Source of the DNA: a virus
Taxonomy: Duplodnaviria; Heunggongvirae; Uroviricota; Caudoviricetes
Reading direction: 5' to 3' (one strand)
IMG/VR virus record: IMGVR_UViG_2623620505_000002
DNA length: 47,971 bases
The translations under genes and the position numbers were made by a program. The number at the start of each line of letters is the position of its first letter. Position 1 is the stretch's first letter. Below, in pieces: positions 14,625 through 15,176 of the stretch. The notes under the pieces are model-generated. The model was given only the letters and a program-made list of their open reading frames with translations. It was not told where the DNA came from and did no database searches.

Positions 14625-14720
14625 TAAAAATGATGAGCCGAGACTGTATTTACGGGACGCTGAGAGAATACCATAGAAAAGCTTATCTAACTTAAGTAGA
14701 ATTGCTGCGGGTGCTTGAGG

Positions 14721-14756
14721 CTATCTGCCTCAGGCATGAACACCAAAGGCAGATAG
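14721..14756. promoter_or_regulatory. Inverted repeat in the hok 5' leader (candidate mRNA fold / antisense target)
   Basis: CTATCTGCC ... GGCAGATAG 9-bp inverted repeat upstream of the hok reading frame. Confidence 0.3.
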
Positions 14757-14877
14757 AGAAAAGCCCCAGTTAACATTACGCGTCCTGCAAGACGCTTAAC
14801 ATTAATCTGAGGCTCAATCTATGAACGGCAAATCTAGGTTAGCCTCTTACGTGCCGAAAGGCAAGGAGAAGCAGGCT

Positions 14878-15033
14878 ATGAAGCAGCAAAAGGCGATGTT
14901 AATCGCCCTGATCGTCATCTGTTTAACCGTCATAGTGACGGCACTGGTAACGAGGAAAGACCTCTGCGAGGTACGAATCCGAACCGGCCAGACGGAGGTC
15001 GCTGTCTTCACAGCTTACGAACCTGAGGAGTAA
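14878..15033 (+). CDS. hok: Hok/Gef-family type I toxin (HokD/RelF-like); in-frame upstream extension to 14821 may be the mok-like leader
   Basis: 51-aa product MKQQKAMLIALIVICLTVIVTALVTRKDLCEVRIRTGQTEVAVFTAYEPEE has the Hok signature; AAGGAG RBS. Confidence 0.85.
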   Translation: MKQQKAMLIALIVICLTVIVTALVTRKDLCEVRIRTGQTEVAVFTAYEPEE

Positions 15034-15176
15034 GAGACCTGGCGGGGGAGAAATCCCTCGCCACCTCTGATGTGTCAGGCATCCTCAACGCACCCGCACT
15101 TAACCCGCTTCGGCGTTTTTTCCGTTGATTAACTCTAGTTATTAGAGAACCGAACTTTTATTGATGGGGCAGGGAG

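What the first reader, a model, noticed from the sequence alone, without database searches (positions are those of the whole stretch)
14625..15135. hok-family type I toxin carried as prophage cargo
The 51-aa product is an unmistakable Hok/Gef-family membrane toxin, closest by memory to HokD/RelF. An in-frame upstream extension could be a mok-like leader, and the 5' region has a 9-bp inverted repeat typical of hok mRNA folds. No relBE genes accompany it and no antisense sok gene can be confirmed by eye. An unregulated hok would be lethal, so a cis-antisense RNA or an inactivating feature is expected.
Basis: partly seen in the sequence, partly recalled or inferred. Interest (0 to 1): 0.45.

Follow-up and report, generated by a model that had tools for sequence, protein, structure and literature searches.

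The report
Intact hok/mok/sok toxin-antitoxin in prophage

Summary
Window 14878..15033 (+) encodes a 51-aa protein identical to E. coli K-12 HokD/RelF; the coding DNA is 156/156 identical (Pfam HOK_GEF, E = 3e-23).

Unlike the K-12 copy, whose leader was replaced by relBE, this copy keeps every known regulatory part:
- A -10 promoter element, with the hok mRNA starting at about 14709.
- A 5' end (14709-14720) that pairs with a 3' element (15083-15095). This pairing co-varies across genera.
- An in-frame mok ORF (14821..15033) with its own ribosome-binding site.
- An antisense Sok RNA on the minus strand (14829 to 14759).

The Sok promoter is TTGCCT-17-TAACCT. Its -10 is the hexamer that was mutated in the experimentally characterised hokW-sokW locus of Stx2 phage Sp5/933W, which is 93.7% identical over the shared DNA.

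About 3,800 of 5,426 complete E. coli genomes carry at least 80% of the queried stretch. One genome is 100% identical over the stretch, and the prophage around it is 99.9% identical. The window is a lambdoid prophage; hok lies between the replication genes and the Q antiterminator.

Verdict: already known, low interest. Minor peculiarities are a weakened 3' terminator and a variable patch at the Sok 5' tail.

The parts
14674..14702 (+). hok promoter: TAGAAA (-35-like, 14674-79), 17-nt spacer, TAGAAT (-10, 14697-14702)
   Evidence: Consensus scan gives 9 of 12 matches. A -10-like hexamer (TAGAAT, TATAAT, TATATT and similar) stands at the same distance from the GGG start in nearly all of about 50 related loci. 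The -35 region is not conserved, which fits a weak promoter.
14709..15121 (+). full-length hok mRNA (about 413 nt; 5' end from homology, 3' end inferred at the U run)
   Evidence: Position 1 of the Rfam RF01794 model aligns at 14709. nhmmer puts leader position 1 at the same GGG(T/C)GCTTGAG in about 50 loci. MFE is -167 kcal/mol, z = -7.74. On a 42-sequence alignment, 85.6% of cells are paired against 38-47% for slid controls, and 39 pairs change on both sides against 14-19.
14709..14720 (+). tac: 5'-terminal element GGGUGCUUGAGG, which pairs with fbi
   Evidence: In the MFE it pairs with 15083-15095: 12 bp with one bulged C. A 9-nt perfect inverted repeat, 14706-14714 / 15090-15098, was found independently.
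14721..14756 (+). An alternative hairpin, 14711-14739, competes for the same bases.
   Evidence: Helix 2 is 92% paired, with 3 pairs changed on both sides. The alternative 5' hairpin is predicted for short nascent or truncated transcripts.
14759..14829 (-). Sok antisense RNA (about 71 nt): free 5' tail, long imperfect hairpin, GGGGCUUUU 3' end
   Evidence: Maps one-to-one onto misc_RNA sokW of phage 933W, AF125520. Fold is -31.5 kcal/mol, z = -5.32. The hairpin co-varies (helix 4). It is perfectly complementary to the mok ribosome-binding site and start codon because it is cis-encoded.
14836..14864 (-). sok promoter: -35 TTGCCT (14864 to 14859), 17-nt spacer, -10 TAACCT (14841 to 14836)
   Evidence: Read directly from the sequence. 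It is identical to 933W from 14834 to beyond the hok start. The 'promoter-less' sokW construct of Takada et al. 2021 changes exactly this hexamer: primer YO-421 has CCGGCTCG in place of TAGGTTAG (PMC8621323). The geometry matches R1 sok (TTGCGC-17-TATCCT) in the R1-type locus.
14809..14812 (+). mok Shine-Dalgarno GAGG, 8 nt upstream of the mok ATG
   Evidence: GAGG is invariant in all 42 aligned loci. It is base-paired in the full-length fold, P(unpaired) about 0 for three of the four bases.
14821..15033 (+). mok ORF (70 aa), in frame with hok and sharing its stop codon
   Evidence: ORF list. Aligns with the annotated mokW of 933W and mok of phage Rac.
14863..14868 (+). hok Shine-Dalgarno AAGGAG; overlaps the sok -35 on the other strand
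   Evidence: Sequence. Mostly paired with 14846-14852 in the full-length fold. Conserved across loci.
14878..15033 (+). hok (hokD allele), 51 aa membrane toxin
   Evidence: Pfam HOK_GEF 3e-23. Identical to WP_000813254.1 HokD. DNA 156/156 identical to K-12-type hokD.
15016..15019 (+). TACG at the Tyr47 codon: known TadA A-to-I editing site of hokD mRNA (Tyr to Cys); edited A = 15017
   Evidence: Sequence. A15017 is predicted unpaired, P = 1.00. Editing of hokC/D/E at this aligned position is reported in PMC5630033, with hokD edited about 6% in K-12 (PMC12214031).
15040..15063 (+). conserved G+C-rich 3'-UTR hairpin
   Evidence: MFE. Helix 15 is 88% paired, with 4 pairs changed on both sides.
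15083..15095 (+). fbi (fold-back inhibition element) CCUCAACGCACCC, complementary to the mRNA 5' end
   Evidence: In nearly all of the ~50 related loci examined, from Escherichia, Kluyvera, Photorhabdus, Pantoea, Erwinia and Citrobacter, the first 12 nt find their complement 45-56 nt after the hok stop. Compensatory changes: GGGUGC/GCACCC versus GGGCGC/GCGCCC (UA 28, CG 11 sequences at pair 4) and GAGG/CCUC versus GAGA/UCUC.
15106..15121 (+). weakened terminator-like hairpin CGC-UUCG-GCG followed by U6; a mosaic junction
   Evidence: Folds at -3.1 kcal/mol here against -11 to -15 in K-12, Rac and other copies that read CCCGCTTCGGCGGGTTTTT. Not flagged by the terminator scan. The functional hokW lacks this hairpin altogether.

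Best explanation
This is a complete hok-mok-sok type I toxin-antitoxin module, the hokD/hokW allele group. It sits as a moron in the early-right region of a lambdoid E. coli prophage, between the replication genes and the DUF968-RusA-Q genes.

**How it most likely works** (R1 hok/sok model applied to the parts found here):
1. A weak promoter makes a roughly 413-nt hok mRNA starting at 14709.
2. Its 5' end (tac, 14709-14720) pairs with fbi (15083-15095). This closes the molecule so that the mok and hok ribosome-binding sites are both base-paired and the RNA is inert.
3. Slow 3' trimming that removes fbi would let the 5' end refold and open the mok ribosome-binding site.
4. Translation of mok (14821..15033) is needed for translation of hok (14878..15033).
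5. Sok RNA, from the opposite strand (14829 to 14759), pairs through its free 5' tail with the mok ribosome-binding site and start. This blocks mok and therefore hok, and marks the duplex for RNase III.
6. Sok is presumed short-lived and the mRNA long-lived. Hok is therefore made only when Sok supply collapses. It then inserts in the inner membrane and kills or lyses the cell.

**Most likely role here**, by analogy with hokW-sokW of prophage Sp5: Hok is released at prophage induction and helps lysis and phage release.

**Shown here:** all sequence parts, their arrangement, the long-range pairing and its covariation, and near-identity to an experimentally tested locus.

**Inferred:** transcription start and end points, RNA half-lives, 3' processing, mok-hok coupling, and the biological role.
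For: - **Toxin.** Pfam HOK_GEF 3e-23. Protein and coding DNA are identical to K-12 HokD.
- **Leader.** Rfam RF01794 scores 111.7 bits over model positions 1-157, at 14709-14883.
- **Antisense RNA.** Sok and mok map one-to-one onto the annotated sokW and mokW of 933W. The locus is 93.7% identical to 933W/Sp5 over 14692-15105. The sok promoter and the mok and hok ribosome-binding sites are identical. The Sok fold has z = -5.3.
- **mRNA fold.** z = -7.7, with tac-fbi pairing and both ribosome-binding sites paired.
- **Covariation.** tac-fbi complementarity is present 45-56 nt after the stop codon in nearly all of the ~50 related loci examined, from six genera, with compensatory changes. For the whole structure, 85.6% of cells pair against 38-47% in slid controls.
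- **Experiments on the close relative** (PMC8621323). HokW is toxic. sokW expressed from this promoter neutralises it. sokW RNA disappears and HokW appears after mitomycin C in a RecA-dependent way. Deleting the locus halves phage release.
- **Context.** The window is a lambdoid prophage. hok genes are reported as enriched in prophages (bioRxiv 10.1101/2025.08.07.668861).
Against: - No expression data exist for this copy.
- The sok -10 (TAACCT) matches the consensus at only 3 of 6 positions, and the simple scan did not flag it.
- The hairpin after fbi is much weaker than in most relatives (-3.1 against -11 to -15 kcal/mol). The mRNA 3' end, and so the timing of fbi removal, may therefore differ. 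However, the functional hokW has no hairpin there at all.
- Thermodynamic folding of 3'-truncated RNAs gives the expected alternative 5' hairpin only for some end points, so the refolding pathway is not demonstrated.
- Reading the sequence, I find no YUNR (U-turn) motif inside the Sok-tail target 14816-14829. 933W has CUGA there.
- Earlier work reported that several chromosomal hok loci failed to mediate post-segregational killing (cited).
- In Sp5, hokW lies near the prophage end, not in the early-right region, so the role may not transfer.
Confidence: 0.88

Rival explanations
1. The locus is a silent relic: structurally complete but functionally inactive, like the chromosomal hok loci of laboratory E. 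coli. It is carried passively in a prophage that is itself decaying.
For: - The prophage has two IS insertions: ISEc20 at about 12811-14267, and an IS3 copy at about 22480-23642 (coordinates mapped from the 99.9%-identical genome).
- The neighbouring gene has an in-frame stop codon.
- The hok terminator is weakened.
- Chromosomal hokA, hokB and hokC were reported not to mediate post-segregational killing.
- K-12 hokD mRNA is edited only about 6% at the Tyr codon that may be needed for a second cysteine.
Against: - No regulatory element is damaged. The promoter -10, tac, fbi, both ribosome-binding sites, the mok and hok ORFs, and the sok promoter and hairpin all match the functional hokW-sokW locus or co-vary with it.
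- ISEc20 lies about 440 bp upstream of the transcript start and does not touch it.
- HokD itself is toxic when expressed; it was a positive control in the Hok toxicity assay cited.
Confidence: 0.1
2. It uses the same molecular mechanism, but its role is prophage stabilisation (killing cells that lose the prophage) or abortive infection against other phages, rather than helping lysis at induction.
For: - hok/sok of plasmid R1 stabilises plasmids.
- R1 hok/sok reduces T4 plating (discussed in PMC8621323).
- Toxin-antitoxin systems are proposed to maintain prophages.
Against: - The only direct experiment on a member of this allele group, hokW-sokW, points to a role at induction. Deleting that locus had no growth phenotype under normal conditions.
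- hok loci show no enrichment next to defence systems.
- Nothing in the window discriminates between these roles.
Confidence: 0.3
3. It is an unregulated or relBE-linked hokD, as in the K-12 Qin prophage: a toxin ORF without its own antisense control.
For: The protein and coding DNA are identical to K-12 hokD. RefSeq annotation of the identical genome lists only 'hokD'.
Against: - No relB or relE is present in the window.
- K-12-type DNA is homologous only from 14864 onward, and it gives no Rfam leader hit.
- This copy has the full 170-nt leader with mok and sok.
Confidence: 0.01

Closest known systems
hokW-mokW-sokW of Stx2 prophage Sp5 / phage 933W (AF125520; Takada et al. 2021, PMC8621323)
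   Same: - 93.7% DNA identity over 14692-15105.
- Same order and spacing of all parts.
- Identical hok -10, tac, fbi, sok promoter, and mok and hok ribosome-binding sites.
- The Sok hairpin differs at one loop base; the first 44 residues of the toxin are identical.
   Different: - The toxin C-terminus differs: ...VFTAYEPEE here, ...VFVDYESEK in HokW.
- mok codons 2-5, and therefore the Sok 5' tail, differ: GCCGUUCAUAG... here, against the complement of AUGCUGAACAC in 933W.
- The DNA upstream of -25 and downstream of fbi is unrelated.
- hokW lies near the prophage end in 933W, whereas this copy lies between the replication genes and Q.
hokD (relF) of the K-12 Qin prophage, downstream of relBE
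   Same: The coding sequence (156/156), 3' UTR, fbi and terminator region are identical or nearly so: 98.5% over 14864-15121. The neighbourhood is the same type, upstream of the DUF968 (ydfU) and Q genes.
   Different: K-12 has relBE in place of everything upstream of 14864. It therefore lacks the hok promoter, tac, the mok start and sok, and gives no Rfam leader hit. The K-12 terminator hairpin is intact (-12.3 kcal/mol against -3.1 here).
hok/sok of plasmid R1 (the mechanistic paradigm; R1-type locus fetched from p1658/97)
   Same: It has the same set of parts in the same order: tac, 5' hairpin, Sok terminator region, mok ribosome-binding site and start, sok promoter, hok ribosome-binding site, hok, fbi. 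The Rfam leader model hits both, on the hok-sense strand.
   Different: - Takada et al. report 44% identity between HokW (a close allele of this toxin) and R1 Hok; this toxin itself was not compared with R1 Hok.
- R1 mok is out of frame with hok (read from the R1 sequence), whereas here mok is in frame, so its product would be an N-terminally extended Hok.
- The Sok hairpin here carries about 16 extra nt (alignment).
- The 5' hairpin loop is much shorter here.

Membership tests
Hok/Gef toxin family (Pfam PF01848) | About 50-aa peptide matching the HOK_GEF profile above the curated cut-off | tested here: met
   81.6 bits against a cut-off of 22, E = 3e-23, profile positions 1-42 of 42. PHROG 251 at 7.7e-33.
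Hok/Gef toxin family (Pfam PF01848) | Toxicity through the inner membrane when expressed | not testable with these tools
   Not testable for this copy. The identical protein HokD was toxic as a control in bioRxiv 10.1101/2025.08.07.668861, and the close allele HokW is toxic and locates to the inner membrane (PMC8621323).
[quoted passage not shown] | Conserved roughly 160-nt hok mRNA leader (Rfam RF01794) | tested here: met
   111.7 bits against a gathering score of 59, full model length. The model hits the hok-sense strand in R1-type, 933W and Rac loci as well. It therefore marks the leader, not the orientation of the Sok gene.
[quoted passage not shown] | cis-encoded antisense Sok RNA with its own promoter, a free 5' tail, one hairpin and a U-rich end, complementary to the mok translation start region | tested here: met
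   Sequence, position and fold are met. The promoter is identical to the mutationally tested sokW promoter. Transcription of this copy was not testable.
[quoted passage not shown] | Overlapping mok reading frame with its own ribosome-binding site inside the Sok target | tested here: met
   GAGG at 14809-12 and ATG at 14821 open a 70-codon ORF ending at the hok stop. It is homologous to the annotated mokW and mok. mok-hok translational coupling was not testable.
[quoted passage not shown] | Long-range pairing of the mRNA 5' end (tac) with a 3' element (fbi), supported by covariation | tested here: met
   12 bp in the MFE. A 9-nt perfect repeat spans 375 nt. Complementarity is conserved 45-56 nt after the stop in six genera, with two compensatory positions. 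Helix 1 is 90% paired.
[quoted passage not shown] | Refolding of the 5' end after 3' processing (alternative tac hairpin, ucb/dcb pairing) that opens the mok ribosome-binding site | tested here: inconclusive
   An alternative 5' hairpin (14711-14739) is predicted for nascent RNAs and for one of three truncation end points. The other end points keep the closed 5' hairpin. Energy minimisation cannot establish a kinetic pathway.
[quoted passage not shown] | Unstable Sok, stable hok mRNA, 3' exonucleolytic activation | not testable with these tools
   Needs a rifampicin chase with Northern blots.
relBE-hokD operon arrangement (K-12 Qin) | relB and relE immediately upstream of hokD, replacing the hok leader | tested here: not met
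   No RelB or RelE match in the window; best E = 0.98. The leader is intact. Homology to the K-12 type starts only at 14864.

The most novel reading that the evidence does not exclude
Two untested readings remain open.

1. **Private specificity for each copy.** Among nine closely related hokD-type copies, the about 20-nt patch most variable within the leader and coding region (only the 3'-UTR hairpin loop and the alignment's 3' edge vary as much) is 14816-14838. This is exactly the Sok 5' recognition tail and the first mok codons. Each prophage copy might therefore have its own Sok-target specificity, so that the several hok/sok modules in one E. coli genome (median 2, up to 10 matching places per genome) do not cross-silence.

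2. **Activation by read-through at induction.** Here hok points the same way as the early-right (pR to Q) genes. Read-through transcription at induction could collide with the convergent sok promoter. That would couple Hok release to the lytic switch, and would be a concrete mechanism for the unexplained loss of sokW RNA after induction.
Probability: 0.25. Interest if true: 0.4.

Novelty: already known. Interest (0 to 1): 0.12.

Why it matters
It matters little as a discovery. The module, its parts and its mechanism have long been described. A 94%-identical copy has been tested experimentally, and about 70% of complete E. coli genomes carry most of this sequence.

Its practical value is for annotation:
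- RefSeq labels only 'hokD' here and omits mok and Sok.
- The Rfam 'sok' model reports the hok-sense strand, so it does not give the orientation of the Sok gene.
- The K-12 reference copy is the truncated, atypical form, whereas this window shows the intact arrangement.

The locus could also serve as a natural test case for two questions: whether Sok tails of co-resident prophage copies are orthogonal, and how prophage induction removes Sok.

Tried and rejected
- **Consensus scan.** It flagged the hok promoter but neither the sok promoter (its -10 matches only 3 of 6) nor any terminator. I therefore located Sok by homology to the annotated sokW and by folding, not from this scan.
- **Rfam 'sok' hit on the plus strand.** I did not take it as a plus-strand Sok gene. 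The model ends at the hok AUG, and it also hits the hok-sense strand in R1-type DNA.
- **relBE linkage.** Searched and absent.
- **Second hok copy in the window.** Absent.
- **IS disruption, as at K-12 hokA, hokC and hokE.** ISEc20 ends about 440 bp upstream of the transcript start and interrupts nothing in the module.
- **Upstream 87-aa ORF (14361..14624).** No Pfam or PHROG match, so there is no evidence that it belongs to the module. However, it is adjacent to hok in phage Rac as well.
- **U-turn (YUNR) motif in the Sok-tail target.** Not found by reading 14816-14829. The nearest, CUAG at 14834-37, lies under the sok -10. I gave this little weight.
- **Searches not run.** I did not run the large protein-database searches or structure prediction, because identity to HokD already settled the protein.

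Full report
**What is there**

Window 14878..15033 (+) is a 51-codon ORF, and an in-frame ATG at 14821 gives a 70-codon ORF. The product matches Pfam HOK_GEF (E = 3e-23, 81.6 bits against a cut-off of 22) and PHROG 251 'MokW-like host killing'. RefSeq annotates the identical protein, WP_000813254.1, as HokD in a genome that is 100% identical over the finding and in a K-12-type genome. The coding DNA is 156/156 identical to the K-12-type hokD. The window holds no relB or relE and only one hok.

**Context**

The first 35 kb of the window are 99.9% identical to a prophage of E. coli VG12A2, integrated next to potC. Its gene order is integrase, excisionase, exonuclease, dicB, cI-like repressor, cro, O, a P-like ATPase, several small genes, hok, DUF968, RusA, Q, lysis genes, terminase, head and tail. 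'Prophage cargo' is therefore correct. hok points the same way as the early-right genes. An ISEc20 copy occupies about 12811-14267, defined by comparison with phage Rac DNA that lacks it. It ends about 440 bp upstream of the hok transcript.

**The regulatory parts**

- **Leader.** Rfam RF01794 ('sok') matches 14709-14883 on the plus strand, at 111.7 bits over the full model.
- **Strand of the Rfam hit.** The same model hits the hok-sense strand in R1-type plasmid DNA, 933W and Rac, and does not hit the K-12 relE-hokD junction. It therefore describes the hok mRNA leader, and its strand says nothing about the orientation of the Sok gene.
- **hok promoter.** TAGAAA-17-TAGAAT lies at 14674-14702, 6 nt upstream of 14709. 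Across about 50 related loci a -10-like hexamer and the GGG(T/C)GCTTGAG start are conserved in register, while the -35 region is not.
- **Sok.** The misc_RNA sokW annotated in phage 933W maps one-to-one onto window 14829 to 14759, minus strand.
- **sok promoter.** Upstream of Sok on that strand are TTGCCT (14864 to 14859), 17 nt, and TAACCT (14841 to 14836).
- **Experimental support for that promoter.** The segment is identical in 933W. The 'promoter-less' sokW construct of Takada et al. changes exactly this hexamer; primer YO-421 carries the change (PMC8621323).
- **Sok fold.** The predicted RNA has a free 5' tail, one long imperfect hairpin and a GGGGCUUUU end (-31.5 kcal/mol, z = -5.3). The tail covers the mok start codon. 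The strand descending from the hairpin loop covers the mok ribosome-binding site GAGG (14809-12).

**The mRNA fold**

The 413-nt RNA from 14709 to 15121 folds at -167 kcal/mol, z = -7.7. Its first 12 nt pair with 15083-15095: the tac-fbi interaction of the hok family. Both ribosome-binding sites are base-paired.

I fetched 53 loci encoding HokD relatives from one genome per species. In nearly all of the ~50 leader-containing loci examined (the fetched ones plus the phage and plasmid copies), from Escherichia, Kluyvera, Photorhabdus, Pantoea, Erwinia and Citrobacter, the first 12 nt of the predicted mRNA find their complement 45-56 nt after the stop codon. Compensatory changes are present: GGGUGC/GCACCC versus GGGCGC/GCGCCC, and GAGG/CCUC versus GAGA/UCUC.

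On a 42-sequence alignment, the window's predicted structure is 85.6% paired, against 38-47% when partners are slid by 1-3 columns. It has 39 pairs changed on both sides, against 14-19 in the slid controls. This control leans somewhat towards the structure, because the structure was derived from one of the aligned sequences.

Folding of truncated and nascent RNAs shows an alternative 5' hairpin (14711-14739) for some end points only. The refolding step of the R1 model is therefore plausible here but not shown.

**Relation to known copies**

- **Distribution.** 4,727 of 5,426 complete E. coli genomes have a match, and 3,816 have at least 80% of the query. The median is 2 places per genome and the maximum 10. 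The conserved block runs from about 14685/14692 to 15115/15121.
- **K-12 type.** These genomes match only from 14864 onward, because relBE replaces the leader. The literature describes this copy as lacking components of the canonical system (PMC12214031).
- **Phage records.** 102 records match. 933W and VT2-Sakai are 93.7% identical and carry mokW, hokW and sokW annotations.
- **Experiments on hokW-sokW.** The toxin is toxic and locates to the inner membrane. sokW neutralises it, partly through RNase III and Hfq. sokW RNA disappears and HokW appears after mitomycin C in a RecA-dependent way. Deleting the locus halves phage release (PMC8621323).

**What is slightly unusual here**

1. **Weakened terminator.** The hairpin after fbi reads CCCGCTTCGGCGTTTTTT instead of CCCGCTTCGGCGGGTTTTT. 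Its stability drops from -11 to -15 kcal/mol in relatives to -3.1 kcal/mol here. hokW lacks this hairpin entirely, so it is probably dispensable. Some genomes and phages match the query through to its end, beyond this point, though I did not check whether they carry the same weakened hairpin.
2. **Variable Sok tail.** Among nine hokD-type copies, 14816-14838 is the most variable stretch of the leader and coding region (the 3'-UTR hairpin loop and the 3' edge of the alignment vary as much). It corresponds to the Sok 5' tail and mok codons 1-5. This could mean copy-specific recognition, but with n = 9 it is only a lead.
3. **In-frame mok.** mok is in frame with hok, as in mokW. In R1 it is out of frame.
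4. **Editing site.** The Tyr47 codon sits in a TACG motif with its A predicted unpaired. This is the TadA editing site reported for hokC, hokD and hokE, with about 6% editing in K-12 hokD. It may add another layer of control.

**Verdict**

The 'missing' antisense gene is present and matches an experimentally characterised one. This is a known system in a common arrangement and is of low interest. The mechanism I give is the R1 and hokW model applied to parts that are all present here. Transcript ends, half-lives, processing, mok-hok coupling and the biological role remain inferences.

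Noticed in passing
window 15177-15569 (+): A lipoprotein-like gene (signal peptide ending in LGGC) matches phrog_16082 over its full 130 positions. It is split by an in-frame TAA at 15330-15332, so it is probably a pseudogene. RefSeq annotates only the first 51 codons in the identical genome.
   Followed up: partly
window ~12811-14267 (transposase 12836..14032, minus strand): An IS110-family ISEc20 element is inserted between two small phage ORFs, about 440 bp upstream of the hok transcript. Its boundaries come from comparison with phage Rac DNA that lacks it. A second insertion, IS3, is annotated in the 99.9%-identical genome at a position equal to window ~22480-23642. 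The prophage may be defective.
   Followed up: partly
window 17982-18177 (+): Three Rfam hits lie just downstream of the Q antiterminator gene: c4-a1b1 targets (52 bits), isrK (79 bits) and C4 antisense RNA (74 bits). A truncated ORF6N-domain gene follows them. Together they may form a P1/P7-type C4-ant immunity-like module inside a lambdoid prophage.
   Followed up: no
window 14816-14838: Among nine hokD-type loci that are otherwise nearly identical, this patch (the Sok 5' tail and mok codons 1-5) is the most variable stretch of the leader and coding region; only the 3'-UTR hairpin loop and the alignment's 3' edge vary as much. It may give each copy its own Sok-target specificity.
   Followed up: partly
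window 15106-15121: The hok terminator hairpin is weakened relative to K-12 and Rac copies, and sequence similarity to many other copies ends here: a mosaic junction.
   Followed up: yes
window 14972-14975: A second TACG motif lies inside hok (GTA CGA, Val32-Arg33), in a UACGAA context. Editing there would be synonymous. hokW has G at that position in its DNA.
   Followed up: no
L021, L026 (genome contigs); H42 (phages): hokD sequences with 96-100% protein identity to this toxin sit on contigs of 275-431 bp labelled Acinetobacter idrijaensis and Xanthomonas pisi. Another, 97.5% identical in DNA, is in a record named 'Actinobacillus phage vB_Apl-pPE4'. These are probably E. coli contamination or mislabelling rather than real host range.
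   Followed up: no
window 14361-14624 (+): An 87-aa ORF lies directly upstream of the hok promoter and has no Pfam or PHROG match. It is also adjacent to hok in phage Rac, where it is called HP5.
   Followed up: partly
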